From NCBI GenBank assembly GCA_902590895.1, contig CACIYM010000001.1, forward strand, positions 4,477 through 68,476: DNA of 64,000 nucleotides, written 5' to 3'. The translations under genes and the position numbers were made by a program. This document shows, piece after piece, positions 1-19,038 of this stretch (the stretch's first letter is position 1; each line of letters starts with the position of its first letter). The notes below the pieces were generated by a model that saw only the letters and a program-made list of their open reading frames with translations, was not told the origin of the DNA and searched no databases. The DNA is from an uncultured Alphaproteobacteria bacterium (GTDB lineage: Bacteria; Pseudomonadota; Alphaproteobacteria; Methylaequorales; Methylaequoraceae).

Positions 1-595
1 TTTGATTTTTTTTATTTTCTTTTACCATTTTATCCAGTTCTTGATTTATTTTTGCTGAAGTCATCACGTTTGATTCTGCAATTGATTTAACAAGTTTGTT
101 GGATTCATCCTTAATTGATTTTGATAAACCACTAGAGAGATTTGATATTTCCTTGGATAGGTTAATCATAAGCGTTTTATCATTTGATTTTATGGCATCT
201 GATAAGTTATCCACAGCACTTTTTAATTCAGTATTAGCATTAACAAGATCGCTGTGCCTCGCTAAACTTGAATTCATATTTTCGACAGCTTTATTTACAT
301 TTTCAACATTTTCAGCAAATACTACGAGTGCTTCCCTACTTGTACTTGTCATGTCCTCTAACTCCGATAAAGATTTAAAATATAGAAGTCCTGTTAGTAT
401 TATTGCAATAACAGCTGTTGCAATTGAACTTGAAAAAACAATTGTAGTGTATTTATGTATTTCTTTCACTTTTTGCTCCGCTTTTATATATTCATTTTTT
501 ATCTTTTTATATTCTGATGTAACATCGGTGGCAGCATCAGCAGCATCTAAAGCAATTTTAATGCTTTCTTGCATAGCGTTTATTTGTTGGTTCAT
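1..595 (-). CDS. membrane-anchored coiled-coil protein of unknown function (partial; 3' end beyond left edge of window)
   Basis: My own minus-strand translation from the ATG at 595-593 gives MNQQINAMQESIKIALDAADAATDV...TTIVFSSSIATAVIAIILTGLLYF (one TM)...ENVENVNKAVENMNSSLARHSDLVNANTELKSAVDNLSDAIKSNDK... The frame stays open to position 1. It is absent from the ORF track because it has no stop in the window. The listed + ORF 96..623 is its antisense shadow. It has an ATGA start/stop overlap with the upstream 66-aa ORF. Confidence 0.6.
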   Translation of the reverse strand, partial: MNQQINAMQESIKIALDAADAATDVTSEYKKIKNEYIKAEQKVKEIHKYTTIVFSSSIATAVIAIILTGLLYFKSLSELEDMTSTSREALVVFAENVENVNKAVENMNSSLARHSDLVNANTELKSAVDNLSDAIKSNDKTLMINLSKEISNLSSGLSKSIKDESNKLVKSIAESNVMTSAKINQELDKMVKENKKNQ

Positions 596-792
596 GCAAG
601 CAATCCTTTTTTCTTTATGTTAACATTTTTATTCTTTTTTGAAAATAGTGCACAATTTGTGCCAGAAATTGTTCTGACCTCTAGATAAGGAATTTTTTTT
701 GATATAACGCCAAAAGCTCTGCAGCCGTATGGATAGTTTCTTTTGTGAGTTATATAAAAGTGTTGGCAGTTATTACAATAATCCCTATTCAT
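592..792 (-). CDS. small Cys-containing protein (66 aa), unknown function
   Basis: ORF track. The N-terminus has a CNNC...GC pattern (MNRDYCNNCQHFYITHKRNYPYGCRAFG) plus a later Cys. An 8-nt overlap with the upstream ORF and an ATGA overlap with the downstream gene suggest a real, co-translated gene. I recognise no family. Confidence 0.45.
   Translation of the reverse strand: MNRDYCNNCQHFYITHKRNYPYGCRAFGVISKKIPYLEVRTISGTNCALFSKKNKNVNIKKKGLLA
649..664 (-). promoter_or_regulatory. sigma54-type promoter candidate (-24/-12) in front of the coiled-coil gene
   Basis: The minus strand reads TGGCAC-AAATT-GTGCA (GG-N10-GC spacing, perfect -24 hexamer, -12 one mismatch from TTGCA). It lies 53 nt upstream of the ATG at 595, with AGGA 8 nt before the ATG. 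It sits inside the 3' part of the 66-aa ORF. Confidence 0.5.
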
Positions 793-1021
793 TGTTCTTA
801 AGTTCCTTTATCTTTGATACTAATTTTGCTATTTGAAATCTTAAACCACCGGCAAAAGATGTTACGGCACAAAACCACAAAAAATATGACAAAAGAATGT
901 TTTCATCTTTGTAAGTTTCAATGGCTTTAAAATGGCAAACAACTGCACTGTAGAAAAATGCAAAGGTAATAATTAGTTGAGATATTTTTCTACTAAACAT
1001 TTTGTTTTCCATTTTCGTCAA
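785..1021 (-). CDS. small two-TM membrane protein, unknown function
   Basis: ORF track. Two hydrophobic helices (LIITFAFFYSAVVCHF and LLSYFLWFCAVTSFAGGL). It overlaps the flhB 3' end by 29 nt from the first ATG, or by 8 nt if Met8 at 1000 is the start. It overlaps the next ORF by 8 nt. Confidence 0.5.
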   Translation of the reverse strand: MTKMENKMFSRKISQLIITFAFFYSAVVCHFKAIETYKDENILLSYFLWFCAVTSFAGGLRFQIAKLVSKIKELKNNE

Positions 1022-2141
1022 AAATTAAGTCGCTAGGTACTTCAATTTCTGGTTTTTCGATTTCCTCGCCATTATTAATTTTATATATATACGCCAATGC
1101 TATAGCTACTGCATTATACAACTTACTTACTATTTCGTCACCAATTTCTGTAGTAAAGTATAATGCCCTAGCTAATATTGGACTTTGCATATTACCGATA
1201 TTAAGTTTTTTGGCCTTCTCAATTATTAATTCAGCATTTTTTCCTTTACCCTTTGCAATAACTATCGGTGCAGCTGAATCACCAACCTCATATTTAAGGG
1301 CAATTGCAAAATGAGTTGGGTTTGTAATTATCGCGGTTGCTTCATCAAGATTTTCTATAGATGCATTTTCTTGTCTAGTTTTTCTCGCAGCATTCATTTG
1401 TAATTTTCTTATTTTTTGTTTTACCTCTGGCTGACCATCAGTGTCTTTATATTCGTCTTTGATATCCTGATGGGACATTCTCAGTGATTTTATGTAGTCA
1501 TATTTTTGATAAGTGAAGTCGATTGCCGCAATAACTGCTAAAGCCACCAACAAGCAAATAACTAAAATTGGGAAAAAAGAGACAAGCCTTGATAAAGCTG
1601 AGAATAGGTTTGCCTCACTTATATTTATAATATCTGGAAGGTAAAAAATTAATACGAAATATGAAATAATCCCTAAGAAAAAAACTTTTAAAATTGATTT
1701 TGCTAGTTCGACAAGACCTTTAATGGCAAATATTTTACCAAGTCCCTTAATAGGATTCATTTTTTCAAATTTAAACTCAATAGATTTTAGAGAAAAGTTT
1801 ATCCCCCCAACCATGAATTGAGTTAAAATACAAATAATTACAAGTGGTGTAGAAAAGATAATAACTACTTTAACAATGAAATTAATAGCAGCCTTTACTG
1901 ATTCTAATGGGGATTTACCATTGTTTAATTCTGGTCCAAAATTAAAAAAAGAGGCAGTAATTTTTAAAAAATCATCTAGCAACGGCGGCATTAAATACAT
2001 CAATAAAACACCGATTGATAGAATAGTGAAAACCTGCATCTCTCTGGATGTAACAACTTTCCCATCCTCTTTAGCTTTTTCCAATCTTCGGGAGGTGGGG
2101 TCCTGGGTTTTTTCCTGACTTTCGTCTTTATCTTCAGCCAT
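993..2141 (-). CDS. flhB: flagellar type III export switch protein FlhB
   Basis: 382 aa with four N-terminal TM segments. Has the NPTH autocleavage motif (AIITNPTHFAIALKY) and a typical N-terminus (EKTQDPTSRRLEKAKEDGKV). Confidence 0.95.
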   Translation of the reverse strand: MAEDKDESQEKTQDPTSRRLEKAKEDGKVVTSREMQVFTILSIGVLLMYLMPPLLDDFLKITASFFNFGPELNNGKSPLESVKAAINFIVKVVIIFSTPLVIICILTQFMVGGINFSLKSIEFKFEKMNPIKGLGKIFAIKGLVELAKSILKVFFLGIISYFVLIFYLPDIINISEANLFSALSRLVSFFPILVICLLVALAVIAAIDFTYQKYDYIKSLRMSHQDIKDEYKDTDGQPEVKQKIRKLQMNAARKTRQENASIENLDEATAIITNPTHFAIALKYEVGDSAAPIVIAKGKGKNAELIIEKAKKLNIGNMQSPILARALYFTTEIGDEIVSKLYNAVAIALAYIYKINNGEEIEKPEIEVPSDLIFDENGKQNV

Positions 2142-2142
2142 T

Positions 2143-2964
2143 TTATTTTGATCCTACAAATAAGATTTCAACTGATTCAAGTGCATTTTTAGTCAAATCG
2201 GAAAAAGCATTACCTATTGTTCTTGATGATAAATAAAGAACAAAAAATGCAAGAAGTAATGTAACCGGAAAAGCAAATGAAAACATATTTAATTGTGGTG
2301 AAGATCTGGTGATAACTCCGATAGCGATATTTGCCATCAACAGTGATCCAACGACTGGTAACATAATCAATCCACCTGTATAAAACATTGCGCCTGCTGC
2401 CTCAATTCCTAACCCTACAAGTGATAAAGGTGGAAGTTCTGCGCTTAAATTATAAACTTCAAAGCTTTTAAATAAAAAATCTATCGCAATGAGGTGTCCA
2501 TTTAGTGATAAAAAAACTGTGATTAAAAATAGGTCTAAAATAATACTAATTACAGGGGTTTGACCACCAGTTTCGGGATCCACCATTTGTGAAAACCCAA
2601 GTCCAGTAGATGCTGCCATTTTTTCACCAGCTAAAGTTGCTGCACTAAACCAAATACTAAGAGTTAATCCTAATGAAATCCCAATTATTGCTTCAACAAT
2701 TACAATCATTAATAAGTTATCCATAACATACTGATTGACTTCAGTTTCTGAAATATAACCAAAATAAAAAAAAGAAATTACCATCGAAAAAACTATTTTT
2801 ACATTTAATGGTATATTCTTTGAACCAAGGAATGGACTGGAAATCAGAAATGAAGACAGTCTTATTGAGGATAAAAAGAATAAAAAAAGATAATCCATTA
2901 ATTCATTTAATTCTATCCCCGGAAGTGGATCCATAGGAGAAAAAAATGGAAGAGGAATGAACAT
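2143..2964 (-). CDS. fliR: flagellar export gate protein FliR
   Basis: A 273-aa polytopic membrane protein between fliQ and flhB, with a FliR-like sequence. There is a 1-nt gap to flhB and a 1-nt overlap with fliQ. Confidence 0.9.
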   Translation of the reverse strand: MFIPLPFFSPMDPLPGIELNELMDYLFLFFLSSIRLSSFLISSPFLGSKNIPLNVKIVFSMVISFFYFGYISETEVNQYVMDNLLMIVIVEAIIGISLGLTLSIWFSAATLAGEKMAASTGLGFSQMVDPETGGQTPVISIILDLFLITVFLSLNGHLIAIDFLFKSFEVYNLSAELPPLSLVGLGIEAAGAMFYTGGLIMLPVVGSLLMANIAIGVITRSSPQLNMFSFAFPVTLLLAFFVLYLSSRTIGNAFSDLTKNALESVEILFVGSK

Positions 2965-3230
2965 TATTTTATACCTGAGACTGTTTCAAAGATAAAATGA
3001 AAATAATCATGTAAGCTTACTAATAAGAAAGGAGCTAAAAAACCCATTGCAAAAATAACTAACACCATTTTTGGTACAAAACTTAAAGTCATTTCTTGAA
3101 TAGAAGTAGCGGCTTGTAAGATGCCTATTAACAAACCAATTGCTAACGCTGCTCCTAAAAACGGTCCACTAGTTATCAATACTTGATAAAAAGCTAATCT
3201 GACCATTTCAATATTTTCATCAAATCCCAT
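2964..3230 (-). CDS. fliQ: flagellar export gate protein FliQ
   Basis: The ORF track gives 2964..3290, but that start would overlap fliP by 46 nt. Met21 (ATG at 3230-3228) gives an 88-aa two-TM protein of typical FliQ size, 14 nt downstream of the fliP stop. Confidence 0.9.
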   Translation of the reverse strand: MGFDENIEMVRLAFYQVLITSGPFLGAALAIGLLIGILQAATSIQEMTLSFVPKMVLVIFAMGFLAPFLLVSLHDYFHFIFETVSGIK

Positions 3231-3244
3231 TAATAAACTTCTTT

Positions 3245-3994
3245 CTAAGGTGAAAATGTTCCAACTAATGAACCAACTGTCATTGACCATCCATCAACCA
3301 ATACGAATAAAAGAAGTTTAAATGGAAGTGCAATTAACATTGGTGATAACATCATCATACCTAGTGACATTAAAATAGAAGCAATTACCATATCAATTAC
3401 TAGAAACGGTAAAAACAACAAGAACCCAATCTGAAATGCAGTTTTTAGCTCACTAGTCATGTAAGCCGGAAGAATTATGTAAAACGGTATCTCAGAAGTA
3501 TCAAGAAATTCACCTTTGTTTGCCATATCTGAAAACATCACAAGATCATTTTTTCTGGTGTTTTTAATCATAAAACCCTTTAGTTCGTTACCCCCACTTT
3601 CAATAGCCTCACTTAAATTCATCTCTCCAGCCTGATAAGGTCCTGAAACAGTTGAATATATTTTGTTAAAAGTTGGGGCCATTACAAAAAATGTTAGAAA
3701 AAGTGAAATAGCAATAATAATTTGATTAGGTGGAGTTTGTTGGGTACCTAGTGCTTGTCTAAGAATTGACATAACAATTACTATTCTCGTGAAAGCAGTC
3801 ATACCCAAAACAAGTGAGGGTAGGATTGTTAATGCTGTCATTAATGCTAAAATTTTTAAAGATAGCGAATATGTTTTATCTCCATTAGCTGATTCTGTAA
3901 TAGTAAGTGCTTCTAATCCTCCTGGAACTGCCTGTGAGAATGCTAAAACTGGGAATAAAAATGTTATTATAAGAAAAATACTAAATTTTTTCAT
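3245..3994 (-). CDS. fliP: flagellar export gate protein FliP
   Basis: 249 aa with an N-terminal signal peptide (MKKFSIFLIITFLFPVLAFS). Has a conserved FliP core (TALTILPSLVLGMTAFTRIVIVMSILRQALGTQQTPPNQ). Confidence 0.95.
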   Translation of the reverse strand: MKKFSIFLIITFLFPVLAFSQAVPGGLEALTITESANGDKTYSLSLKILALMTALTILPSLVLGMTAFTRIVIVMSILRQALGTQQTPPNQIIIAISLFLTFFVMAPTFNKIYSTVSGPYQAGEMNLSEAIESGGNELKGFMIKNTRKNDLVMFSDMANKGEFLDTSEIPFYIILPAYMTSELKTAFQIGFLLFLPFLVIDMVIASILMSLGMMMLSPMLIALPFKLLLFVLVDGWSMTVGSLVGTFSP

Positions 3995-4310
3995 TTAATA
4001 ACCTTTTTTCAAAAACCTTTTCAAGATGTGATGTTTTATTTTTTGAATTTGTTTTAATTTCAGTTAATAGAGCTCCTGAGTTTTTTCCAGAAATAAATAA
4101 ATATTCTTTGTCATCAAGATTTAATATTAAAGCCCTATCTCCTTGACCAAGAATGGTCACATCAGATATTTTCATCCTTTTTTTTGAATTTAATTTTTGT
4201 GATATTACATGCTTATTTTTTTTTAGATAATAAAAACCAATAAGCATTGATAGTAAAAAACCTAAAACTAACAAATAGTTTGATAAACTGGGTCCTGTAA
4301 ATTCTTGCAT
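3981..4310 (-). CDS. fliO: FliO-like flagellar biosynthesis protein
   Basis: Single TM (LSNYLLVLGFLLSMLIGFYYL) followed by a small soluble domain. It sits immediately upstream of fliP and overlaps it by 14 nt. I place the start at the ATG at 4310-4308 (MQEFTG...), which is preceded by GAGG. The track's TTG start at 4340 lies inside the -12 element of the promoter. Confidence 0.6.
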   Translation of the reverse strand: MQEFTGPSLSNYLLVLGFLLSMLIGFYYLKKNKHVISQKLNSKKRMKISDVTILGQGDRALILNLDDKEYLFISGKNSGALLTEIKTNSKNKTSHLEKVFEKRLLNEKI

Positions 4311-4335
4311 ATTACCTCGCTTTTTATACAGAGGA

Positions 4336-4351
4336 TGCAAGAACCTTGCCG
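4336..4351 (-). promoter_or_regulatory. sigma54-type promoter (-24/-12) for fliOPQR-flhB
   Basis: The minus strand reads CGGCAAG-GTTC-TTGCA (GG-N10-GC; GGCA and TTGCA match the consensus TGGCAC-N5-TTGCW). It lies 25 nt upstream of the ATG at 4310, with GAGG in the short leader. Confidence 0.6.
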
Positions 4352-4430
4352 TAAGATTGATCTTTAGTGTAAGTTACTGATTGTACTGATAAAATATTTA
4401 ATAAAAAAATTTGTTGTCAAATAAATGGCG

Positions 4431-4835
4431 CTAGAGATTTTCAATTAATTCCTCAGGATCGGCCACTTCAGTAAATCTTATTCCAAACTTCTCGCCAACC
4501 ATAACAACTTCTCCTTTAGCTATTTTTGTTCCATTTGCAAGTATATCTAACGGTTCGCCTGCTAGTCTTTCAAGTTCAACCACGGAACCTTCATTAAGCC
4601 TTAATAGGTCTTTGATTTTTATCTCCGTGTTACCAACCTCCACAGTTAATTTAACCTCTATATTCTCTAATACTCGCAGGTTATTAACGGCTGCTGTCCC
4701 TTGTTTTGCAATTTTGTCATTAGGCTCACTTTGAGCATTGACATCACCGTCAGCTTTTGTCTCTTCAGGTTTATTTTCTTTAACTTCTTCGTTCGGTGTT
4801 TCTTTTTTTTCTTCTTGAGCAGTTTCAGCGTTCAT
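4431..4835 (-). CDS. fliN: flagellar motor switch protein FliN
   Basis: Has a C-terminal SpoA/FliN domain (LLRLNEGSVVELERLAGEPLDILANGTKIAKGEVVMVGEKFGIRFTEV). Lies downstream of fliM. Confidence 0.9.
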   Translation of the reverse strand: MNAETAQEEKKETPNEEVKENKPEETKADGDVNAQSEPNDKIAKQGTAAVNNLRVLENIEVKLTVEVGNTEIKIKDLLRLNEGSVVELERLAGEPLDILANGTKIAKGEVVMVGEKFGIRFTEVADPEELIENL

Positions 4836-4846
4836 TATATATCTCC

Positions 4847-5827
4847 TTAGTTTTTTAATCTTTTAGTTAATTTTACAGAAGCATTACCTTTAACTTCTCC
4901 CATTTCAGCCTTAAAATACTTTTGATTACTAACATAAAAATCGACGGTATCATCTACATTAATATTTAAAGTATCACCTTCTTTTATTCTAAGAAGTTTT
5001 GACATTGAAACAACAGGTTCTGATAAATTACTTTGAACTTTTAAAGGCACTTCTAGTACAGCCTTTTCTAATTTATCTCTCCAAGATAGATTAGTCTCTA
5101 CAACATCGGACTGTACCCTTGATCTTAGTAACGAAGATACTGGTTTAAGAGTTTGTAATGGGTAAACTATATCAAATGACATTGAGTCAACTTTTGGGAG
5201 TTGCATTACAAAAGAACAAACAATTATAAGATCAGAAGATTCAACAAAAGCTGCAAATTGCGGATTTTGTTCTCTACTATGAAATTTGATTGTAATTGGT
5301 GTCAAGTCTTTCCAGCTTTGCTCTAAAACTTTTGCTATACCTTCATTTACTACTTCAATTATTTTTTCTTCTGTAGAAGTGAATTCTGTTCTGTTTGTCT
5401 CAGAAACTTCAAGCTTCCCTCCATATCTGCTACTCGTACAAAGGTTGACAAAATTTGGTGGTAAGACTGTAAGCATTGAACCTCTAAGCTCATCAATTCT
5501 GCTATTCGTCATACTCATGAATGCATCCAATCCAGAGCTATATTCTTCGTATGATTTTACTTCAGGAGGAAAGGAGCTAATTCTTGGTTGAACTCTGAGT
5601 AATGGTAAAAAAACACTTCTCACTGTTCGAGCGAATCTTTCATTTATCAATCTTAATGCATAATAATCTCCAAGTAATGAAAGATCATCTGAACCAAATT
5701 GGAAGGTTTTGTATTCAATTTCTTTTCCATCTTTAATAGTAGTTGAGGCACTCAAATCACCAGACTTAAGTCCTTCCATTAGAGCGTTTACTTCTTCACT
5801 AGATAACTTTCTTGATGGTTCCACCAT
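4847..5827 (-). CDS. fliM: flagellar motor switch protein FliM
   Basis: 326 aa with an N-terminal CheY-binding-like LSSEEVNALMEGL. The C-terminus has a SpoA-like domain. Lies between fliL and fliN. Confidence 0.85.
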   Translation of the reverse strand: MVEPSRKLSSEEVNALMEGLKSGDLSASTTIKDGKEIEYKTFQFGSDDLSLLGDYYALRLINERFARTVRSVFLPLLRVQPRISSFPPEVKSYEEYSSGLDAFMSMTNSRIDELRGSMLTVLPPNFVNLCTSSRYGGKLEVSETNRTEFTSTEEKIIEVVNEGIAKVLEQSWKDLTPITIKFHSREQNPQFAAFVESSDLIIVCSFVMQLPKVDSMSFDIVYPLQTLKPVSSLLRSRVQSDVVETNLSWRDKLEKAVLEVPLKVQSNLSEPVVSMSKLLRIKEGDTLNINVDDTVDFYVSNQKYFKAEMGEVKGNASVKLTKRLKN

Positions 5828-5835
5828 ATTAAACT

Positions 5836-6468
5836 CTATTGTAGTACAAAGGATGTAAAGTGAACATTTTCAACTCCACCAAATCCCTCAACCTTAACTA
5901 ATGTGTTGTTAATACCTTCTTTTAAAGAATCCGCAAGTTTTTGTTTGCCCTCTCTGCCTGCAATGTCCGCTGGGGAAAAGGTTGACATAATTGTTAGGAT
6001 CTCTGATCTAAGTGCTAATTGATGGCTATCAACATTAGCCATAACCTGCTCATCGTATTGTGTTGAAACCCCAAGTGATATTTGCAGAAATTTTTTTGAC
6101 TCTTTAAGATTGGTTGTAAAATTTCCTGGGAATTCGTAATATGTTGTTGCAAAAATTTCCTCTTCAGGTGTAATTTTTGGAATTTTTTTTGGGCCAACAG
6201 GACAATTACCTTCTTCATCTTTTTCCTCCTCAGCACACTCAGCTGCTACCTCTTCAACTTCTGCTTCAGTATCTTTTTCAGAAGCTTCTGGGTTTTCTTT
6301 TTTTTCAATAATTTGTGATATTTCGGTAGATGGATCTGATGATTCTCCACCACTCATAAGTATTCCAATTCCTAAACCTGCCCCGAGAAGTACAATACCT
6401 CCAACAATCATTAAAATTAATTTTATTGGACTTTTTTTTTCATTATCTTGGTTATTATCTTCAGCCAT
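5836..6468 (-). CDS. fliL: flagellar basal-body-associated protein FliL
   Basis: Single N-terminal TM (IKLILMIVGGIVLLGAGLGIGILM). Has a FliL-like C-terminal domain (YYEFPGNFTTNL...FLQISLGVST...LRSEILTIMS) and sits upstream of fliM. It also contains an acidic insert (see findings). Confidence 0.75.
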   Translation of the reverse strand: MAEDNNQDNEKKSPIKLILMIVGGIVLLGAGLGIGILMSGGESSDPSTEISQIIEKKENPEASEKDTEAEVEEVAAECAEEEKDEEGNCPVGPKKIPKITPEEEIFATTYYEFPGNFTTNLKESKKFLQISLGVSTQYDEQVMANVDSHQLALRSEILTIMSTFSPADIAGREGKQKLADSLKEGINNTLVKVEGFGGVENVHFTSFVLQ

Positions 6469-6496
6469 CTTTACTCCTTAATAAATAGTATTTTAT

Positions 6497-7771
6497 TTAT
6501 GCTTGCACATCAATATTATGGTTACTAATTATTGTTTTTTTATTATCAATTGATTTTCTTTTATTAACTATTTGCTGGTTATCAATAACTTTTTTTTTTT
6601 TGGGATTATTAAAATTGTTATTAGAATTACCTTCAAAAAAATTAGAAAACTTATCATTTTTACTTTCAATAAGCTCATTTAACTTTCCCAAGTTTTCATT
6701 AAGTATATTAGCTGATTCAATATTTTCGGCGTTAATTTGAATTTTTGTTGTATTATCTTTTACAGAAACATCTAAATTTATTTTACCTAGGCTTTTTGGT
6801 TTAAGTGTGATTTCAACTTTATTTAGACCGTTGGTAACAGCATTTTTAATCATTTTCGAAAACTTTTCTCCCCAACTGCTTTCCATTAAATTTAATATTT
6901 CAGGTGTTGCAAATAATTTTGTTGGTCTGGTCTTGTTTTCTAATAATTGGGTATTCTTTTCTTTTTTTAATTTTTGAATATTGTTACTGATATCAATATT
7001 TTTTTTGGAACTTGTTATTACTTGATTGAAATTTTGTTTAAGAGGATTATTGTTTTTAATGATTTGATTTTCCTCTTCATTATTTACGTTTGTAGTAAAT
7101 GATTGTTTTCTTTTTCTAATTTTTTTTTTCTCTGATACTAGTTCTGGTTGATTTGTAATTTTTTTTTTTAAATCAAACCCTTCATGATTATTTTTTTCCC
7201 CTTTTATCTCTCCTATTTTTGATTCTGTTCCTAAGTTACTAATTTTTAAATCACTGCTAGAGTTTACCTTAAAGTCTGACTTTGTATTTTTTTTTGGCGG
7301 TTTAAATGAGACAGCTACAGAAATATTTTCAGTATTAATTGTTTTCTCTGGATTATTAGATTTAATTAGATTTTGTCGATTTTCACTTGTTTTATTTGAA
7401 TCATTAGGAGTCAATATTTGATTATTTAAATTTTTAGAAAGTATATTTTTATTTTTTGAAAAATTAATGATTTCAGATTTGGGTTCATTCGTTTGAGTTA
7501 TGCCAACATCTTTATAAAAAATTTGTACTAAAGACTTTGCAAGATCTTCGGTTCTTGAATTATAATTTTGGGTGTATAAAGTGTTTTTATCACCTTCACT
7601 TTGATCAATATTGTAAATATTTGAATCATTTTCCGTATATTCTTCATTGCTTCCAGAATGCACCAAAGCGAATAGCTCAGCAAATAACAAATCTACTTCA
7701 TCAGGAGAAACATTTTGTTTGATTCCAACTAAATTTGATGCTGAATTTGTTTTATTATCTATTGAAACCAT
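6497..7771 (-). CDS. fliK: flagellar hook-length control protein FliK-like
   Basis: The C-terminal part (KVEITLKPKSLGKINLDVSVKDNTTKIQINAENIESANILNENLGKLNELI) resembles the FliK C-terminal (Flg_hook) domain. The N-terminal two thirds are N/K/S-rich low complexity. Lies between fliJ and fliL. Confidence 0.65.
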   Translation of the reverse strand: MVSIDNKTNSASNLVGIKQNVSPDEVDLLFAELFALVHSGSNEEYTENDSNIYNIDQSEGDKNTLYTQNYNSRTEDLAKSLVQIFYKDVGITQTNEPKSEIINFSKNKNILSKNLNNQILTPNDSNKTSENRQNLIKSNNPEKTINTENISVAVSFKPPKKNTKSDFKVNSSSDLKISNLGTESKIGEIKGEKNNHEGFDLKKKITNQPELVSEKKKIRKRKQSFTTNVNNEEENQIIKNNNPLKQNFNQVITSSKKNIDISNNIQKLKKEKNTQLLENKTRPTKLFATPEILNLMESSWGEKFSKMIKNAVTNGLNKVEITLKPKSLGKINLDVSVKDNTTKIQINAENIESANILNENLGKLNELIESKNDKFSNFFEGNSNNNFNNPKKKKVIDNQQIVNKRKSIDNKKTIISNHNIDVQA

Positions 7772-7796
7772 AAATTAACCTTTCACTACAACTTAG

Positions 7797-7812
7797 TGCA
7801 AATATAGTGCCA
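7797..7812 (-). promoter_or_regulatory. sigma54 promoter (-24/-12) for fliKLMN
   Basis: The minus strand reads TGGCAC-TATAT-TTGCA, a perfect match to TGGCAC-N5-TTGCA. It lies 10 nt after the fliJ stop and 25 nt upstream of the fliK ATG (7771), with AAAGG in the leader. Confidence 0.7.
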
Positions 7813-7821
7813 CGTTAATTT

Positions 7822-8229
7822 CTAAATCATTACTTTAGTTTTAAAATTTTGATCTTTTCTCAAGTCTTTTATTTTTTCGATCATTTGGGCTTCCTCTTTT
7901 ATTTTTTTATCAATTTTTTCTTTCTGTTTTTTTATTTTGTTGATTTCACCCAAATAATCGTTCATTTCCTTTTCAAGATGAATTTCTCTATTTGTTGAAA
8001 TTTCAAGTTTTTCTTGAAGATTTTCTCTAAAAGAAGAAGTTTGTCTAAGTTGAGAACTATTTAATATTTCTCCTTCATTAAATGATGATTTTTTAAGCAT
8101 TTCCTTTAAATCTTCACTAATCCTTTCTAATTTTTTTTTTTCTAAACTAAGGGTATTTAGATTTAAAGAGAGCTTATTTTTTTTGATTTTTTTTAATAAA
8201 TTAAGTAGTTGGTATTTTTTTTTTTTCAT
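7822..8229 (-). CDS. fliJ: flagellar export chaperone/stalk protein FliJ-like
   Basis: A 135-aa, entirely coiled-coil, K/E-rich protein lying directly after fliI. Size and position are typical of FliJ. Confidence 0.6.
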   Translation of the reverse strand: MKKKKYQLLNLLKKIKKNKLSLNLNTLSLEKKKLERISEDLKEMLKKSSFNEGEILNSSQLRQTSSFRENLQEKLEISTNREIHLEKEMNDYLGEINKIKKQKEKIDKKIKEEAQMIEKIKDLRKDQNFKTKVMI

Positions 8230-8233
8230 AATG

Positions 8234-9550
8234 TTAAATGTTTTTTAATAAATCCATACTTTGGTTGAAGTCTTCTTTTTTTCTGTAATCTTGCTTGATT
8301 AACTCGCAAATTTTAGGCCATAACTCAATTGCTTTGTCAATTTCTTCATTTTGACCAGTATTGTAACCACCCATTAAAACTAGATCTTTATTTTCTTGAT
8401 ATATTGAAAAATATTTTTTTATCAGCTCAGATTTTTTTCTGTGTTCGTCAGTAATTATTGAATTCATTACTCTACTTAGAGATTGATTGATATCAATTGC
8501 TGGAAAGATACCTAGCTGTGCAAAATCTCTAGACAAAACAATATGTCCGTCAAGAATTGCTCTAGCCGTATCGACCACAGGATCGTTTGTGTCATCTGAA
8601 TCAGCTAAAATTGTATAAAAGCTTGTTATTGTTCCTTCATTTTGTGAACCTGCACCCGTTCTTTCAATTAGATTCGGTATCATTGAAATTACTGATGGAG
8701 GGTATCCTTTTGATGTTGGTTGTTCCCCTAATGCGAGACCAACTTCCCTTTTGGCATGGGCAATTCTTGTTAAAGAATCCATGATTAGCAGAACATTTTT
8801 ACCTTTTGCTCTAAAATATTCGGCAATTGATGTAGCTCTTTCTGCACCTTTAATTCTAAGTAAAGGAGATTTATCTGCCGGAACTGCGATAATTGTTGTT
8901 CTTTTTTTTGTTTCGTCATTAAGTATATCTGAAACAAAATTACCAAGCTCTCTCCCTCTTTCACCTATTAATGCTACTATCACAATGTCTGCATTTGTAA
9001 ATTTTGTCATCATTCCTAAAAGCATTGATTTACCAACTCCAGAGCCAGCTATAATTCCTAATCTTTGACCTCTACCAACAGTGAACATTGTATTAATTGC
9101 CTTTATTCCTACATCCAAAGTTTCACTTATTGGTTTACGCTTCATTGGATTAATTGGTTTACCATTCAAAGGCCAATGATCATTCAAGGAAATTTTTTTA
9201 CTTTCTTCATCAATAGGGTTTCCAAATGCATCGACTACTCTTCCCAAAATTTCATCCCCAACTTCAATGTTGGTGCTGGTATCGAGTGCCTCAATTATTG
9301 AACCAGAGATGAGATTTGCATTTTGGTTGTGAACAGCAATTAAATTTTTATTCTCTCTAAAACCAATAATTTCACCAGTTACGTTATCATCATTGTTACA
9401 ATATATTTTGCAAACAGTGCCAATTGGAGAAGGAAAGGCGTCACATTCAATAATTTTTCCATCAAATTTTGTGATTCTACTTTTGTAGGAGATATTTTTG
9501 TTAATTGAAAACTTTTCTAAATTTTCATTTATTTTTTTGGCTATAATCAT
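8234..9550 (-). CDS. fliI: flagellum-specific ATPase FliI
   Basis: 438 aa. Has Walker A GSGVGKS, Walker B LLIMDSLTR, and an F1/T3SS-ATPase-like sequence throughout. Confidence 0.95.
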   Translation of the reverse strand: MIIAKKINENLEKFSINKNISYKSRITKFDGKIIECDAFPSPIGTVCKIYCNNDDNVTGEIIGFRENKNLIAVHNQNANLISGSIIEALDTSTNIEVGDEILGRVVDAFGNPIDEESKKISLNDHWPLNGKPINPMKRKPISETLDVGIKAINTMFTVGRGQRLGIIAGSGVGKSMLLGMMTKFTNADIVIVALIGERGRELGNFVSDILNDETKKRTTIIAVPADKSPLLRIKGAERATSIAEYFRAKGKNVLLIMDSLTRIAHAKREVGLALGEQPTSKGYPPSVISMIPNLIERTGAGSQNEGTITSFYTILADSDDTNDPVVDTARAILDGHIVLSRDFAQLGIFPAIDINQSLSRVMNSIITDEHRKKSELIKKYFSIYQENKDLVLMGGYNTGQNEEIDKAIELWPKICELIKQDYRKKEDFNQSMDLLKNI

Positions 9551-10470
9551 TTTTTACTAGTATCTGACACATCATTATTTTTCAAAGTTTTATTATTATT
9601 ATTATTTTCTTGATTTTGATTTGAATTACTTTCAATATTCTTCTTAAGATCTTCTAAATCTTCATTAATATTAGATGATTGAACAAATTTAGTTTTATTA
9701 GAGAGTATATTTGCTACTTCAATAGATCCCGATTTTATTTTTAAATCACCACGTTGAAGATCATTATCAATTTCAAGTTTTTGATCAATATTTATTTTGT
9801 GGTCGGTAAGATATTTTGAAACAGATTCAAAATCTTCTTTATTAAGAAAAATTTTAACTTGCTTGAGAGAATTTTCAATTAAGTTACTTAATTCAGAAAC
9901 TTTTTCAAAAAATTTTTCTGTTTTTGTATCGATTTCATACCCTAGCATTTGTCTAGAAATTTTTTTCAAATTAGTGTTGATTTGATCATTTATCTGTCTG
10001 ATAAAATCAGGGGTCACTGTAAATATATTGTCAGCAAGATTTTTAAAGTTTACAGCAAGTGCCTGTTCACCTTTTTCAAGTTCCTCTTTGACTTTTTTTA
10101 CGCCGAGGTTGTAACCTTTATTATAATATTCTTTTGCAAGTTCGTTGGCCATTTTTTTTGCTTCTGTTTCAGTAATTTTTTTTTCTTCAATAGTTTCCTC
10201 TTTTTTTTCTTCTTCAGTTTCATCTTTCTTCACTTCTTTATCAACAATCTCAGGCTGCTCAGTTTTTTTTAAATTTTGTGAGTTTGACAAAGCCATATCC
10301 TTTGGTGTTTTTTTATTAAAAAGATACGAAACGTTTTCAGTAATTTCAGATTCTTTCTTGAAGTCTTGACTTGTTTTACTTAACAAACTTAGGATTTCTT
10401 CAGTATTTAAAGCACCAGTATTTTTTTTGTCTTGATCTTTTTTTTTTTGATTTTCTTGGATCTGCATCAT
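9547..10470 (-). CDS. fliH: flagellar assembly protein FliH-like
   Basis: Lies between fliG and fliI with 4-nt overlaps on both sides. Has a central coiled-coil segment (EAKKMANELAKEYYNKGYNLGVKKVKEELEKGEQ) typical of FliH. The N- and C-termini are low complexity. Confidence 0.65.
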   Translation of the reverse strand: MMQIQENQKKKDQDKKNTGALNTEEILSLLSKTSQDFKKESEITENVSYLFNKKTPKDMALSNSQNLKKTEQPEIVDKEVKKDETEEEKKEETIEEKKITETEAKKMANELAKEYYNKGYNLGVKKVKEELEKGEQALAVNFKNLADNIFTVTPDFIRQINDQINTNLKKISRQMLGYEIDTKTEKFFEKVSELSNLIENSLKQVKIFLNKEDFESVSKYLTDHKINIDQKLEIDNDLQRGDLKIKSGSIEVANILSNKTKFVQSSNINEDLEDLKKNIESNSNQNQENNNNNKTLKNNDVSDTSKK

Positions 10471-11516
10471 ACAAAGTCATCTCCACCTCTTCCAGCTAGA
10501 ACAATAGTTCCTTCATCTGACATTGTTCTTGCAACATTTATTACAGCTTTTTGTGCTTCTTGTACTTCTGTTAATCTTACTGGTCCAAGAACTTCCATCT
10601 CATCTTTAATATTTGCTGCAGCTCTTTGTGACATACAATTAAATATTTTTTCTTTCAGTTCATCCTCTGTCCCTTTTAGAGCAATAATTAAAATCTCTTG
10701 ATCAACATTTCTTAAAAGAGTTTGCATGCTCCTGTCATCCATTAAAATTAAAGTTTCAAATGTGAACATACTTTCTTGTATTTCTTTTGCTAGGTGTCTA
10801 TCTTTTTCACCCAAGGATTTAATAACTCTTTGTTCCATATTTTGCTTAGTGAAGTTCATTATTGAAGCTGCTGCTTTTATCCCACCGACTGAAGATGCTC
10901 TAAGAGAAGTATTAGTTTTAAATTTAAGTTGCATAACTCTTTCGAGCTCAGCTAAAGCATCAGGCTGGACTGTTTCAAGTGTTGCTATTCTGTGAATTAT
11001 GTCCGACTGAATGTCTTCTGGAAGTAAAACAAGTACATCCGCAGCTACCCCTGGTTCAAGATATGAAATAATGAGAGACATAATTTGCGGATGTTCATCC
11101 GCTATTAGTTCTGCAACTGACCTAGCATCCATCCAATCAAGAATTTCAATAGGTTTATCACTTTCAGTAGGTGTAATTCTTCCAAGAACTGACTGTGCTT
11201 TATTTTCGCCTAAAGCTTTTGTCATAACATTTTTGATATAATTAGATGAGCCCATTCCAAGATCAGTTTGCGTTTTTATTATCGCAAGAAATTCATCTAA
11301 AACTTTATTTACCGTGTCTTGATCTAACCCTTGAACATTATACATCTCTTTACCAAGCTGTTGAACTTCTTTTGGCCCAAGATTTCTTAGGATTTCCGAT
11401 GCTTCATCTTCTCCCAATAACATCATTAATATTGCGCATTTTTGTGTGCTGGTCAGTTTTTCGTAAAATGAAAGTTCTTCTTCGTTTTTATTTTCTTCTG
11501 TTTGTTTTTCGGCCAT
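10467..11516 (-). CDS. fliG: flagellar motor switch protein FliG
   Basis: 349 aa with the MFTFETL motif and a typical LTSTQKCAILMMLLGEDEASEILRNL N-terminus. The charged C-terminal torque helix region is present. Confidence 0.95.
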   Translation of the reverse strand: MAEKQTEENKNEEELSFYEKLTSTQKCAILMMLLGEDEASEILRNLGPKEVQQLGKEMYNVQGLDQDTVNKVLDEFLAIIKTQTDLGMGSSNYIKNVMTKALGENKAQSVLGRITPTESDKPIEILDWMDARSVAELIADEHPQIMSLIISYLEPGVAADVLVLLPEDIQSDIIHRIATLETVQPDALAELERVMQLKFKTNTSLRASSVGGIKAAASIMNFTKQNMEQRVIKSLGEKDRHLAKEIQESMFTFETLILMDDRSMQTLLRNVDQEILIIALKGTEDELKEKIFNCMSQRAAANIKDEMEVLGPVRLTEVQEAQKAVINVARTMSDEGTIVLAGRGGDDFV

Positions 11517-11535
11517 TTAAAATTCCTTTTTATTA

Positions 11536-13254
11536 CTATGCATCTTTTTTCATTAGTTGTCTAAATACATTTGATACCTTCCCTGCTTCATCTCCCACAA
11601 TCATTCTGATTACTGCCACTTTATCGTCATATGTGTTAGCAGTATCTAGCATTTCAGCTGAAATTGCAGTTTTCTTAGGTTTTAATTTAGCTTTTATATC
11701 CTCTATTGATTCACCTTCTTGAACCTCTACCTCGGCTTCTGCTTCTTCTGGTTCAAGATCTGCTTCAGACATTCCAGCTCCAGCACCAACTCCTGCTGAT
11801 GGCACTAAAATTCTATTTAACAATGGTTTCAAAGCCCCGAATGTAACAATTGCTAAGATAAGAACGGTAGAAATTTGACCAATAAGATTTTGAAACCATG
11901 ATTCTTCATACCATTTAGTTGATATTAAATCCATCTCTTCAATGAAATCTCCACTTGTCACAACAATGCTATCGCCTCTATCACCGTTAAATCCTACTGC
12001 CTCCTTTACAAGCGAGGAGATTTTTTCTTTATCTTCTTCACTAATTGGTTCAGAAACGATACCCTCTGGTGACTCGACAGCTTTGTTTTTTACTAAAACT
12101 GCTGTTTTTACTCTTCTAATTTTACCAATTTGACCAACAGTTGTACTAAGTTTTTTACTAACTTCATAATTCTTCACATTTGATGATGATCTTTGTTTGA
12201 ATTCTGCTGGGTCACCCTCGACTGGAGTGTCAATTTGTAAATCAGCTGCAAGAGGAGCTTGATTTGCAACTGCTCCTGGAATACCTCTTGCGGGTCTATC
12301 TGTTGACTCATCCAAACTGTTTTGTTCACTTCTTGGCGCAATGGTTTCTGGGTCGAATGTCTCCTCAGTGGTTTGGGTATTTGTAAAGTCCATTTCTACA
12401 TTTACTTCAGCGGTGATGTTTCCTGCTCCAACTATTGGTGAAACCAAAGATAAAATTCTCTCTCTGTAAAGTGACTCAATCTTAATCCTGTGATTAAGCT
12501 GTTTTTCAGTTAAAGCTATATTAGGATCGTTTTCAGGCTTTGAAAGAAGTTTACCATACTGATCAACAACAGTTACATTATCAGAAGACATATTAGGAAT
12601 AGATGATGAAACAATATGGACTATGGATCTTACCTGTTCACGATTCAGAACTCTGCCGTCAGCAAGTTTCACAAAAACTGAGGCTGTTGGAGATGCAGAG
12701 TTTCTTACAAAAACAGATCTCTCTGGTATCGCCAAGTGCACTCTTGCACCTAAAATGTAAGAGATTTCATTTATTGACCTAGCTAATTCTATTTCTTGTG
12801 TTTGTTTCATCTTCATAAATTCTACTGATCGACTTGTTCCCATAGGAATTTTCTCTAAAATGTCATATCCCTGAGGTATAGAACTTGGAAGACCTTCCGC
12901 TGCAAGTTTCATTTTTGCTTCATAATATTCTGGTGATGGGACAAGTATTTCGCCGGTAGTAGAGTCAATCGAGACATCTATTCCATTAGATCTAAGTACA
13001 TCAATAACCCTTGATTTTTCATGTTCTGGTAATGATGAAAATAGTGTTGTTCTAGATGGTTCCTTGAAAGAAAGAAATAAAATCATTCCTATAAAAATTA
13101 CAAATAAAGTTATCATTACTGGAATAGATCTTTGAACAGCCGGTTCATTTGAAAGTTTTCTTAACTTTTCAAGTGAGTTCCCAATACTCGAAACAATACC
13201 TTTGTTAGCTAATTGAGCGTTTGTAATTTCAGATGTTTGTACTTGTTCAGCCAT
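11536..13254 (-). CDS. fliF: flagellar MS-ring protein FliF
   Basis: 572 aa with an N-terminal TM, a periplasmic ring-building region and a C-terminal TM. The sequence is typical of FliF (GYDILEKIPMGTSRSVEFMKMKQTQEIELARSI). Confidence 0.95.
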   Translation of the reverse strand: MAEQVQTSEITNAQLANKGIVSSIGNSLEKLRKLSNEPAVQRSIPVMITLFVIFIGMILFLSFKEPSRTTLFSSLPEHEKSRVIDVLRSNGIDVSIDSTTGEILVPSPEYYEAKMKLAAEGLPSSIPQGYDILEKIPMGTSRSVEFMKMKQTQEIELARSINEISYILGARVHLAIPERSVFVRNSASPTASVFVKLADGRVLNREQVRSIVHIVSSSIPNMSSDNVTVVDQYGKLLSKPENDPNIALTEKQLNHRIKIESLYRERILSLVSPIVGAGNITAEVNVEMDFTNTQTTEETFDPETIAPRSEQNSLDESTDRPARGIPGAVANQAPLAADLQIDTPVEGDPAEFKQRSSSNVKNYEVSKKLSTTVGQIGKIRRVKTAVLVKNKAVESPEGIVSEPISEEDKEKISSLVKEAVGFNGDRGDSIVVTSGDFIEEMDLISTKWYEESWFQNLIGQISTVLILAIVTFGALKPLLNRILVPSAGVGAGAGMSEADLEPEEAEAEVEVQEGESIEDIKAKLKPKKTAISAEMLDTANTYDDKVAVIRMIVGDEAGKVSNVFRQLMKKDA

Positions 13255-13272
13255 TTCTTACCCCTTACTGTT

Positions 13273-13617
13273 CTAAACCGGCATATTCATTATATCTTTG
13301 TATGCAGATAAAACCTTATTTCTAATATTTAACGTCATTTGAAATCCTAAACTGGCCATTTGCTGATTTATCATTACTTTGGTTAAATCATTTTCAATTC
13401 CAAGTTCATATTTTTTTGTCAGTTCAGCACTGTGAGTTTGGTTATCTGAAACTTCAGTTATTGCATTCTTTATACTTTGTAAAAAATCAAGATCCCTATT
13501 GTTTTCAATTTTTGGTGAAAGATTTGCGACACTTTCTTGAAGGTTCTTGATTTGTTCTTGGTTGTTATTAGTCTCTACTAATTGAGGTTTAAAAACAGTT
13601 GTTAAATTTGGTTTCAT
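13273..13617 (-). CDS. fliE: flagellar hook-basal body protein FliE
   Basis: 114 aa. The C-terminus NIRNKVLSAYKDIMNMPV matches the conserved FliE end (VRNK..AYQEIM.M). Confidence 0.8.
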   Translation of the reverse strand: MKPNLTTVFKPQLVETNNNQEQIKNLQESVANLSPKIENNRDLDFLQSIKNAITEVSDNQTHSAELTKKYELGIENDLTKVMINQQMASLGFQMTLNIRNKVLSAYKDIMNMPV

Positions 13618-13635
13618 TTTTATCTTTCTTAAAGT

Positions 13636-14781: not shown

Positions 14782-14811
14782 TTGTAACCTTGATAAAGTT
14801 TCTAAGCTAAA

Positions 14812-14827
14812 AGCAAAAAACTTACCA
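14812..14827 (-). promoter_or_regulatory. sigma54-type promoter candidate for the activator-fliEFGHIJ operon
   Basis: The minus strand reads TGGTAA-GTTTT-TTGCT (GG-N10-GC; good -12, weaker -24). It lies 30 nt upstream of the ATG at 14781, with AAGG in the leader. An A19 tract starts 6 nt upstream of the -24 element. Confidence 0.4.
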
Positions 14828-14833
14828 ATTTAC

Positions 14834-19036: not shown

Positions 19037-19038
19037 AT

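What the first reader, a model, noticed from the sequence alone, without database searches (positions are those of the whole stretch)
1..1021. Three overlapping uncharacterised genes translationally chained to flhB where flhA is expected
After flhB the minus strand continues without a gap into three genes:
- A 78-aa two-TM protein. It overlaps flhB by 8-29 nt, depending on which start is used.
- A 66-aa protein with a CNNC...GC...C pattern, after an 8-nt overlap.
- A protein of at least 198 aa, after an ATGA overlap. It has a ~50-aa cytoplasmic head, one TM and a long heptad-like coiled coil, and it runs off the window.

In Vibrio/Pseudomonas-type clusters with this gene order, flhB is followed by flhA-flhF-flhG-fliA. 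None of these is present here. I recognise none of the three proteins as a known flagellar component.

Tight coupling to flhB, plus an extra sigma54 promoter, suggests they are lineage-specific flagellar, export or motor accessory proteins.
Basis: partly seen in the sequence, partly recalled or inferred. Interest (0 to 1): 0.65.

Follow-up and report, generated by a model that had tools for sequence, protein, structure and literature searches.

The report
MotF-type flagellar module after flhB
The three unannotated genes after flhB are real and conserved, but they are the usual tail of a Rhodobacter "Fla1-type" flagellar cluster: the largest is very probably the motor-activating protein MotF, and the two small ones are conserved partners of unknown role.

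Summary
On the minus strand, flhB (993..2141) runs with overlaps into three genes:
- a 2-TM protein, 71 aa from the only conserved start (785..1000);
- a 66-aa protein with four invariant Cys (592..792);
- a bitopic helical protein (1..595) that is 241 aa in sibling contigs.

All three are under purifying selection.

The interpretation needs correcting. The cluster is not Vibrio/Pseudomonas-like. It copies the Rhodobacter sphaeroides Fla1 order fleT-fliE...fliR-flhB, where the gene after flhB (RSP_0066) is motF (RSP_0067) and flhA lies elsewhere.

p241 matches MotF in position, size and topology. Its family (244 cluster representatives) includes Rhodobacteraceae genes at the same position. MotF works with FliL to release the MotB plug. 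I could not align p241 directly to RSP_0067.

The block flhB-p71-p66-MotF-like-PDZ/DUF2628 protein recurs in Gemmobacter, Plastorhodobacter and other alphaproteobacteria. The function of p71 and p66 is unknown. The p66 family also occurs widely outside flagellar loci.

It sits inside p66 codons and is conserved across lineages about 70 nt upstream of the motF-like start.

Verdict: mostly explained. It is a new member of a known kind, with some new detail.

The parts
993..2141 (-). flhB, the last canonical gene of the fliK...flhB operon
   Evidence: Pfam Bac_export_2 E 1.6e-100; TIGR00328 flhB E 3.6e-102
A small inner-membrane protein with two TM helices and a conserved G-[GA]-L-R-F-Q-I-A C-terminal amphipathic motif. 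It overlaps flhB by 8 nt.
   Evidence: The ATG at 1000 is the only start conserved in all loci. Two KD hydrophobic segments. dN/dS 0.18. Orthologues follow flhB in Plastorhodobacter, Gemmobacter, L035 and L040. hhalign 97.8%, E 1.2e-12. No Pfam or NCBIfam hit.
592..792 (-). p66, a small basic cytoplasmic protein with four invariant Cys (C6, C9, C24, C47). Presumed metal-binding (Zn or Fe).
   Evidence: Alignments A1, A2 and A4. dN/dS 0.27 with depressed pS. Orthologues sit at the same place in L031, L032, L037, L038, L039 and L040. hhalign 99.2%. The family also occurs in non-flagellar contexts. No Pfam, NCBIfam or PDB match. AF2 model poor, pLDDT 59.6.
649..664 (-). Sigma54 (-24/-12) promoter-like site TGGCACAAATTGTGCA embedded in p66 codons S-G-T-N-C-A. 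It lies about 55-70 nt upstream of the p241 ATG and probably drives the motF-like gene and the PDZ/DUF2628 gene.
   Evidence: Found. Invariant, including synonymous positions, in about 25 marine-clade genomes. An equivalent site lies at -68 to -77 in Gemmobacter, Plastorhodobacter and L040. In L035, which lacks p66, a perfect TGGCACAGGTCTTGCT sits in the intergenic gap.
1..595 (-). N-terminal 198 codons of p241 (241 aa in full). A MotF-like bitopic inner-membrane protein: cytoplasmic helix with the motif ESIKIALDAADAATD, TM at about 50-72, then a long periplasmic helix with the motif REALVVFAENV. In full-length copies the C-terminus ends I-x-[FY]-P.
   Evidence: Translation. Full length from L001. 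dN/dS 0.069, 77-93% identity across the clade, higher than FlhB. Profile search found 244 representatives. Members occur in Gemmobacter and Plastorhodobacter directly after flhB/p71/p66. R. sphaeroides motF = RSP_0067 lies next to flhB RSP_0066. MotF is 24 kDa with a TM at 54-74. AF2 model pLDDT 78, one helix over residues 3-152.
7798..7812 (-). Consensus sigma54 promoter TGGCACTATATTTGC upstream of fliK. It is the likely promoter of the fliK...flhB-p71-p66 operon.
   Evidence: fliK is 6497..7771.
13636..14781 (-). fleT-like sigma54 activator (AAA+ domain, no HTH) heading the fliE-fliJ genes. Context that identifies the cluster as Fla1-type.
   Evidence: Pfam Sigma54_activat E 4.2e-70, no HTH_8. 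FleT/FleQ scheme in PMC7277832.
14953..16023 (+). fleQ-like sigma54 activator with a Fis-type HTH, divergently transcribed.
   Evidence: Pfam Sigma54_activat E 4.2e-67 plus HTH_8.

Best explanation
The region is the distal end of an R. sphaeroides Fla1-type flagellar cluster in an AT-rich, uncultured marine alphaproteobacterium. After flhB comes a conserved four-gene module.

1. p71 is a two-TM inner-membrane miniprotein, translationally coupled to flhB.
2. p66 is a cytoplasmic Cys4 (metal-binding) miniprotein.
3. p241 is the orthologue of MotF.
4. A PDZ-like/DUF2628-like membrane protein (p256) lies just beyond the window.

**Proposed mechanism for p241 (inferred)**
- By analogy with MotF, it inserts N-in/C-out.
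- It extends a roughly 80-residue periplasmic helix from the membrane.
- It localises to the motor.
- Together with FliL it remodels the MotB plug so that MotA/MotB stators conduct ions and drive rotation.

**Transcription**
- p241 and p256 are transcribed from their own sigma54 promoter. That promoter is written into the codons for invariant Gly44 and for Cys47-Ala48 of p66.
- p71 and p66 are read through from the sigma54-dependent fliK...flhB operon.
- p71 and p66 are dispensable accessories (each is missing in some lineages). Their role is unknown. My best guess is inner-membrane or cytoplasmic partners of the export gate or of the MotF complex.

**flhA** is simply encoded elsewhere, as in R. 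sphaeroides.

**Shown versus inferred**
- Shown: the genes, their conservation and synteny, predicted topology, the promoter motif and its conservation, and positional identity with motF.
- Inferred: homology to RSP_0067 itself, the plug-opening function, use of the promoter, metal binding by p66, and any role for p71 or p66.
For: **Cluster type**
- The window has a fleQ-like gene, a fleT-like gene, then fliE-F-G-H-I-J-K-L-M-N-O-P-Q-R-flhB.
- This matches RSP_0051 to RSP_0066 of R. sphaeroides, with RSP_0067 (motF) next and flhA at RSP_0034.
- rpoN, motAB, FliL and a MotB plug are present nearby.
- The FleQ/FleT/sigma54 hierarchy is described in PMC7277832.

**MotF properties**
- MotF is 24 kDa, with a TM at residues 54-74 and a periplasmic C-terminus. 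It acts with FliL on the MotB plug.
- p241 is 26.5 kDa with its TM inside a hydrophobic stretch at residues 49-77.
- AF2 predicts a single helix through the membrane.

**Family**
- The A3 profile found 244 representatives with collinear motifs.
- Members include Gemmobacter sp. and Plastorhodobacter daqingensis, both Rhodobacteraceae.
- In those genomes the gene lies after flhB-p71-p66 and before the p256 homologue.
- Other lineages show the same arrangement.

**Selection**.

**Promoter conservation**.

**Orthology of the small genes and p256**: hhalign 97.8%, 99.2% and 99.7%.
Against: - The R. sphaeroides MotF sequence could not be obtained, so no direct alignment exists. The papers are not held, and no Cereibacter or Rhodobacter name appeared among the cluster members read.
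- The review calls MotF restricted to some Rhodobacteraceae, whereas this family is much broader.
- No Pfam, NCBIfam or PDB family covers p241.
- The periplasmic part is low-complexity helical sequence, which can inflate profile scores.
- The sigma54 site has G instead of T at one -12 position. It is absent from L039 and shifted in L031.
- A count of sigma54-like sites in the window is not itself significant (4 found against 1.7 expected).
- The p66 family is mostly non-flagellar, so its presence here may be incidental.
Confidence: 0.74

Rival explanations
1. p241 is an unrelated coiled-coil membrane protein, for example a polar landmark, a chemoreceptor-like protein or a structural periplasmic spacer. 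It merely occupies the slot after flhB, and the resemblance to MotF in size and topology is coincidental.
For: There is no direct sequence comparison with RSP_0067. One UniRef or JGI name for family members is 'methyl-accepting chemotaxis protein'. There are no curated family hits.
Against: - The same family sits at the same position in Rhodobacteraceae Fla1-type clusters, the family in which motF was defined.
- No MCP signalling domain or any other domain was found in 50 members.
- Conservation is stronger than for FlhB.
- The gene has its own sigma54 promoter, as expected for Fla1 genes.
Confidence: 0.12
2. The trio are accessory subunits or assembly factors of the flagellar type III export gate. 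They would be partners of FlhB or FlhA, as their translational coupling to flhB suggests, rather than motor or stator factors.
For: The genes overlap flhB by 8 nt and each other by 4 to 14 nt in every genome. p71 is a small membrane hairpin like other export-gate helpers. FliO, another small helper, is in the same operon.
Against: - p241 has its own promoter and is kept even where p71 or p66 is lost.
- Each small gene is missing in some lineages that keep flhB (L035 lacks p66; L031, L032 and L039 lack p71).
- The p66 family is mostly found away from any flhB.
Confidence: 0.1
3. The two small ORFs are not functional proteins. In p66, the apparent conservation would reflect the embedded sigma54 promoter and spacer constraints between flhB and motF.
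For: p66 has the lowest synonymous divergence (pS 0.47 against about 0.68). Its most conserved codons coincide with the promoter. L035 keeps the promoter but has no p66. Gene callers missed p66 in Plastorhodobacter.
Against: - dN/dS is well below 1 for both.
- The four Cys, T15, P21 and G28 lie outside the promoter and are invariant across lineages.
- The p66 family exists as a stand-alone gene in 80 non-flagellar loci and in a planctomycete.
- p71 motifs are conserved from 28% to about 65% GC genomes.
Confidence: 0.04

Closest known systems
MotF of Rhodobacter (Cereibacter) sphaeroides Fla1 (RSP_0067; Ramirez-Cabrera et al. 2012, as summarised in PMC7277832)
   Same: - The gene lies directly after flhB in a fleT-fliE...fliR-flhB cluster.
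- It is about 240 aa (24-26 kDa).
- It has a single TM near residues 50-74 and a large C-terminal part predicted or shown to be periplasmic.
- It is accompanied by FliL, MotB with a plug, rpoN and FleQ/FleT-type activators.
- It has its own sigma54-type promoter.
   Different: - The host is an AT-rich (28-31% GC), uncultured marine alphaproteobacterium, not a member of the Rhodobacteraceae.
- Sequence identity to RSP_0067 is untested.
- Here motAB and rpoN lie within about 6 kb, whereas motAB is outside the fla1 locus in R. sphaeroides.
- The family is far broader than the 'some Rhodobacteraceae' stated in the review.
FliL and the FliL paralogue called MotF in Sinorhizobium meliloti (PMC9541039)
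   Same: A single-pass inner-membrane protein with a periplasmic domain that modulates stator (MotB plug) activity.
   Different: S. meliloti MotF has a FliL (SPFH-like) globular fold. p241 has no FliL Pfam hit and is predicted to be all long helices. A separate FliL gene is present at 5836..6468.
Vibrio/Pseudomonas polar flagellar clusters (flhB followed by flhA-flhF-flhG-fliA)
   Same: The gene order fliE-fliR-flhB, sigma54 dependence and two sigma54 activators. Fla1 is thought to derive from a gammaproteobacterium.
   Different: There is no flhA, flhF, flhG or fliA after flhB. The post-flhB slot holds the p71-p66-MotF-p256 module.
Small Cys4 zinc-ribbon or HiPIP-like proteins (for p66)
   Same: Four invariant cysteines in a protein of about 50 residues, with a CxxC pair at the N-terminus.
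   Different: There is no significant match to any Pfam, NCBIfam or PDB family. The best hits are HiPIP at E 0.055 and the GATA finger at E 0.39. The third and fourth Cys are single, not a second CxxC.

Membership tests
MotF (R. sphaeroides Fla1 stator-activating protein) | Encoded immediately downstream of flhB in a fleT-fliE...fliR-flhB (Fla1-type) cluster | tested here: met
   Window gene order compared with RSP_0051...RSP_0066 flhB and RSP_0067. Here two miniprotein genes are intercalated, and they are also present in Rhodobacteraceae.
MotF (R. sphaeroides Fla1 stator-activating protein) | About 24 kDa bitopic membrane protein, TM around residues 54-74, large periplasmic C-terminus | tested here: met
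   241 aa, 26.5 kDa, with one hydrophobic segment within residues 49-77. K-rich N-flank and acidic C-flank, consistent with N-in (sequence). AF2 single helix over 3-152. Topology is predicted, not measured.
MotF (R. sphaeroides Fla1 stator-activating protein) | Significant sequence similarity to RSP_0067 | not testable with these tools
Indirect evidence: the p241 family includes Gemmobacter and Plastorhodobacter (Rhodobacteraceae) proteins at the motF position.
MotF (R. sphaeroides Fla1 stator-activating protein) | Co-occurs with FliL and a plug-bearing MotB, on which it acts | tested here: met
   FliL PF03748 at 5836..6468. MotB with PF13677 MotB_plug and MotA lie within 5 kb in sibling contigs.
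MotF (R. sphaeroides Fla1 stator-activating protein) | Required for rotation; loss suppressed by MotB plug mutations; localises to the motor | not testable with these tools
   Needs genetics and microscopy.
   None of the three ORFs has it. No FHIPEP ORF occurs among the large ORFs of the window or within 10 kb beyond it.
FliL family (including S. meliloti MotF) | FliL/SPFH-like periplasmic domain (PF03748) | tested here: not met
   No FliL hit for p241 or for 50 family members. The model is all-helical.
Methyl-accepting chemotaxis protein (the database name given to some p241 relatives) | MCP signalling domain or HAMP | tested here: not met
   No such Pfam hit in 50 members at E <= 1e-3.
Cys4 metal-binding miniprotein (p66) | Four invariant Cys spaced C-x2-C...C...C | tested here: met
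   C6, C9, C24 and C47 are invariant in 23 sequences from 6 or more lineages. Metal binding itself was not tested.
HiPIP (PF01355), for p66 | Score above the Pfam gathering threshold | tested here: not met
   14.2 bits against a cut-off of 22, E 0.055.
PDZ + DUF2628 membrane protein (p256, next gene, outside the window) | Pfam PDZ and DUF2628 domains | tested here: inconclusive
   Only sub-threshold hits in different orthologues: DUF2628 at 22.2 bits against a cut-off of 23; PDZ_2 at 19.7 against 27.

The most novel reading that the evidence does not exclude
The most novel reading is that p71, p66 and the PDZ/DUF2628 protein are unrecognised components of Fla1-type flagella. They would form, with MotF, a four-protein post-flhB module that couples export-gate expression to stator activation. 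On this reading the MotF family is a widespread alphaproteobacterial motor component, abundant in streamlined ocean bacteria, rather than a Rhodobacteraceae curiosity. In addition, its sigma54 promoter is dual-coded in the metal-ligand codons of p66, which ties promoter and protein evolution together.
Probability: 0.3. Interest if true: 0.55.

Novelty: new member of a known kind. Interest (0 to 1): 0.4.

Why it matters
- The apparent anomaly of a missing flhA disappears. The cluster is simply the Fla1 type, and this gives a correct annotation for a block of hypothetical genes found in abundant marine and freshwater alphaproteobacteria.
- If the MotF assignment holds, MotF-dependent stator activation is much more widespread than the literature states.
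- R. sphaeroides genetics could then be used directly to test three further conserved, unstudied genes: p71, p66 and the PDZ/DUF2628 protein.
- The sigma54 promoter written into conserved codons is a neat example of overlapping constraints. It also explains the depressed synonymous divergence of p66.

Tried and rejected
- **Curated family searches.** Pfam and NCBIfam scans of the three proteins gave nothing above threshold. Scans of 50 p241-family members gave only scattered coiled-coil noise.
- **PDB profile search with p66.** It returned only a GATA finger at E 0.39.
- **Structure prediction.** The AF2 model of p66 was poor (pLDDT 59.6) and its Foldseek hits were meaningless (E > 1). The p241 model had no Foldseek hit in the PDB.
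- **Plasmid search.** tblastn of p241 and of a p66 homologue against plasmids found no match.
- **Word-indexed homologue searches.** They returned only close relatives, all named hypothetical.
- **MotF papers.** The primary MotF and FlgT papers were not held.
- **Cluster-member names.** Three look-ups gave Gemmobacter and Plastorhodobacter but no Cereibacter.
- **Rfam.** No RNA family was found in the window.
- **Rejected readings.**
  - An flhA substitute: no FHIPEP domain.
  - A FliL paralogue: no FliL domain.
  - A chemoreceptor: no MCP domain.
  - Spurious small ORFs: purifying selection and cross-lineage motifs argue against it.
- **Neighbourhood clustering of 80 non-flagellar p66 loci.** No consistent partner gene emerged. 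The best was a QueD-like ORF in 12 of 80 loci.
Full report
**Observation**

On the minus strand, flhB occupies 993..2141 (Bac_export_2, E 1.6e-100). Three ORFs follow it without any gap.
- **p78/p71.** The ORF spans 785..1021 from a TTG (78 aa).
  - Across about 30 related loci, the only start present everywhere is the ATG at window 1000. That gives a 71-aa protein overlapping flhB by 8 nt.
- **p66.** The ORF is 592..792 (66 aa) and overlaps the previous gene by 8 nt.
- **p241.** The ORF starts at 595 in an ATGA overlap and runs off the window after 198 codons. Sibling contigs show it is 241 aa.

Hydropathy gives two TM segments in p71, none in p66 and one in p241 within residues 49-77.

All three are under purifying selection. 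Median dN/dS is 0.18, 0.27 and 0.069, against 0.10 for FlhB and 0.035 for MotA.

**Where the window comes from**

Exact or near-exact copies lie in single-cell and metagenome-assembled genomes labelled uncultured marine Alphaproteobacteria, "Rickettsiales" or "Pelagibacteraceae TMED13". The window is 28-31% GC.

In about 23 of these genomes one block is conserved: FliR-FlhB-p71-p66-p241-p256-RRF-like-(p284, MotB, MotA)-Lcl_C-RpoN. p241 is 77-93% identical across the clade, which is more conserved than FlhB (65-92%).

**What kind of flagellar cluster this is**

Upstream of flhB the window encodes FliR, Q, P, O, N, M, L, K, J, I, H, G, F and E.
- Next comes a sigma54 activator without an HTH (13636..14781).
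- A divergent sigma54 activator with a Fis-type HTH follows (14953..16023).

This is the R. sphaeroides Fla1 arrangement and regulatory logic:
- FleQ activates fleT-fliEFGHIJ.
- FleQ/FleT with sigma54 then activates the rest.
- rpoN2 lies in the locus (PMC7277832).

A published gene table for R. sphaeroides lists RSP_0051 (fleT, annotated torF) and RSP_0052 to RSP_0065 (fliE...fliR). It then lists RSP_0066 flhB and RSP_0067 "hypothetical", and places flhA at RSP_0034 (PMC9779115).

RSP_0067 is motF; that identification is from my own recollection of the 2012 paper. One search lists RSP_0067 only as a hypothetical protein next to flhB. The review describes MotF without giving a locus tag.

So flhA is not expected after flhB in this cluster type. 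No FHIPEP gene is in the window or in the 10 kb beyond it. In one relative (L039), flhA lies about 4 kb further on in a divergent operon beside flgM, flgA and flgT.

**The third gene is very probably MotF**

The review describes MotF as follows:
- a 24-kDa protein with a TM at residues 54-74 and a large periplasmic C-terminus;
- a protein that localises to the motor depending on MotAB, FliL and FlgT;
- a protein that becomes dispensable, like FliL, when the MotB plug is mutated.

p241 matches this in position, size (26.5 kDa) and predicted topology.

A profile built from marine and freshwater members (A3) found 244 representatives at E <= 1e-3 among 1.84 billion proteins. Most are 240-300 aa and matched end to end. 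They share collinear motifs:
- an N-terminal [DE]-x-[ST]-I-x-x-A-L-x-A-A;
- one TM;
- Y-[FY]-[RK]-x-x-S-E-[LM]...E-A-L-V-x-F-A-E-N-V;
- a C-terminal [IF]-x-[YF]-P.

Named members include Gemmobacter sp. MAGs and Plastorhodobacter daqingensis WP_377400556.1, both Rhodobacteraceae. That is the family in which MotF is said to occur.
- In Plastorhodobacter the gene lies in fliOPQR-flhB-74aa-67aa-[P0268]-258aa...rpoN-fliC-Lcl_C-motA-motB-fliD.
- In Gemmobacter it lies in fliL...flhB-73aa-71aa-[P0362]-275aa.

The caveat is that I could not obtain the RSP_0067 sequence itself. The primary papers are not held, and no Cereibacter name appeared among the cluster members read. Homology to the characterised protein therefore rests on position, architecture and family membership of close relatives.

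No Pfam or NCBIfam model covers the family, and Foldseek finds nothing in the PDB.

The AF2 model (pLDDT 78; above 89 for residues 11-130) has one uninterrupted helix over residues 3-152 that passes through the membrane, followed by two more helices. The periplasmic stretch of about 80 residues is long enough to reach periplasmic ring structures. That point is my inference.

**The two small genes**

*p71.*
- It has orthologues directly after flhB in Plastorhodobacter, Gemmobacter, L035 and L040.
- These share an IS[ST] N-terminal motif and a G-[GA]-[LIF]-R-F-[QA]-[IL] C-terminal motif.
- hhalign gives 97.8%, E 1.2e-12.
- It is absent from L031, L032 and L039.

*p66.*
- It has orthologues at the same place in L031, L032, L037 (an ORF the gene caller missed), L038, L039 and L040.
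- C6, C9, T15, P21, C24, G28, G44 and C47 are invariant.
- hhalign gives 99.2%.
- It is absent from L035.
- The p66 family is not intrinsically flagellar.
  - A planctomycete copy sits among unrelated genes.
  - Eighty further metagenomic loci carry a family member, and none has FlhB or a p241 relative nearby.
  - Those loci show no consistent neighbouring gene.
- Its function remains open. Four invariant Cys suggest metal binding. The structure model was too poor to use.

*p256.* The gene after p241 is orthologous across all lineages (hhalign 99.7%). It shows only sub-threshold PDZ and DUF2628 signals.

**The promoter**

A count of such motifs in the window is not significant by itself (4 found against 1.7 expected). 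The conservation is what matters.
- The motif is invariant in about 25 marine genomes, even at synonymous positions. This includes a GGC glycine codon in a 28% GC genome. It explains the low pS of p66 (0.47 against about 0.68).
- An equivalent site lies 68-77 nt upstream of the motF-like ATG in Gemmobacter (TGGCACGGTTTGTGCT), Plastorhodobacter (TGGCATGGATTGTGCA) and L040.
- In L035, which has lost p66, a perfect TGGCACAGGTCTTGCT stands in the intergenic gap.
- In the p66-bearing genomes the -24 GG is the invariant Gly44 codon, and the -12 GC spans the Cys47-Ala48 codons.
- The high-GC genomes use A/T-ending codons there (GAT in Plastorhodobacter, TGT and GCA/GCT). I expect these to be rare in such genomes, though I did not measure codon usage. 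That points to a constraint at the DNA level.

So p241 and p256 probably form their own sigma54 unit, in line with my recollection that motF heads its own transcription unit. p71 and p66 would be read from the fliK promoter, the consensus site TGGCACTATATTTGC at 7798..7812.

**Verdict**

The finding is real but largely explained. It is the standard tail of a Fla1-type cluster, and its main gene belongs to a known, experimentally characterised kind (MotF).

What is new is modest:
- the MotF-like family is far broader than reported;
- three neighbouring conserved genes remain unstudied;
- the promoter is dual-coded in p66.

I rate interest at 0.4.

Noticed in passing
L001 11735..12331 (about 1.1 kb beyond the window's left edge in sibling contigs): A 198-aa protein with only a weak ribosome-recycling-factor match (Pfam RRF 44.6 bits, E 1.8e-11) is conserved inside the flagellar block, between p256 and the motAB operon, throughout the marine clade. 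It is unclear whether it is the housekeeping frr or a diverged paralogue.
   Followed up: partly
L001 15272..15742; also L035 7883..8464, L037 15316..15822, L040 10090..10596: A small secreted protein with an Lcl_C (PF07603) domain sits next to motA in every Fla1-type locus examined, from 28% to about 65% GC genomes. It is a possible unrecognised motor-associated periplasmic protein.
   Followed up: no
L037 9801..10004 (Plastorhodobacter daqingensis JBHTFQ010000002.1): The p66 orthologue (67 aa, ATGA overlap with the motF-like gene) is not called as a gene in the public annotation table. The locus shows a 200-nt 'gap' instead.
   Followed up: yes
window 8306..8320 (-): A further sigma54-like site, TGGCCTAAAATTTGC, lies inside the 3' end of fliI, 77 nt upstream of the fliJ start. 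All three minus-strand sigma54-like sites in the window fall within the flagellar cluster.
   Followed up: no
L041-L120 (metagenome loci): The Cys4 miniprotein family of p66 is common in sediment, wetland and sludge metagenomes as a stand-alone gene with variable neighbours. A QueD/PTPS-like ORF is adjacent in about 12 of 80 loci. No curated family exists for it.
   Followed up: partly
window 1..16000 versus 16001..64000: The flagellar cluster is slightly GC-richer (31.4%) than the rest of the window (27.8-28.0%). This is compatible with, but does not prove, a foreign (Fla1-like) origin.
   Followed up: no
L001 12332..13186 (-): A poorly conserved 284-aa protein (38-56% identity across most of the clade, dN/dS 0.32, no Pfam hit) lies immediately downstream of motB in the marine clade.
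   Followed up: no
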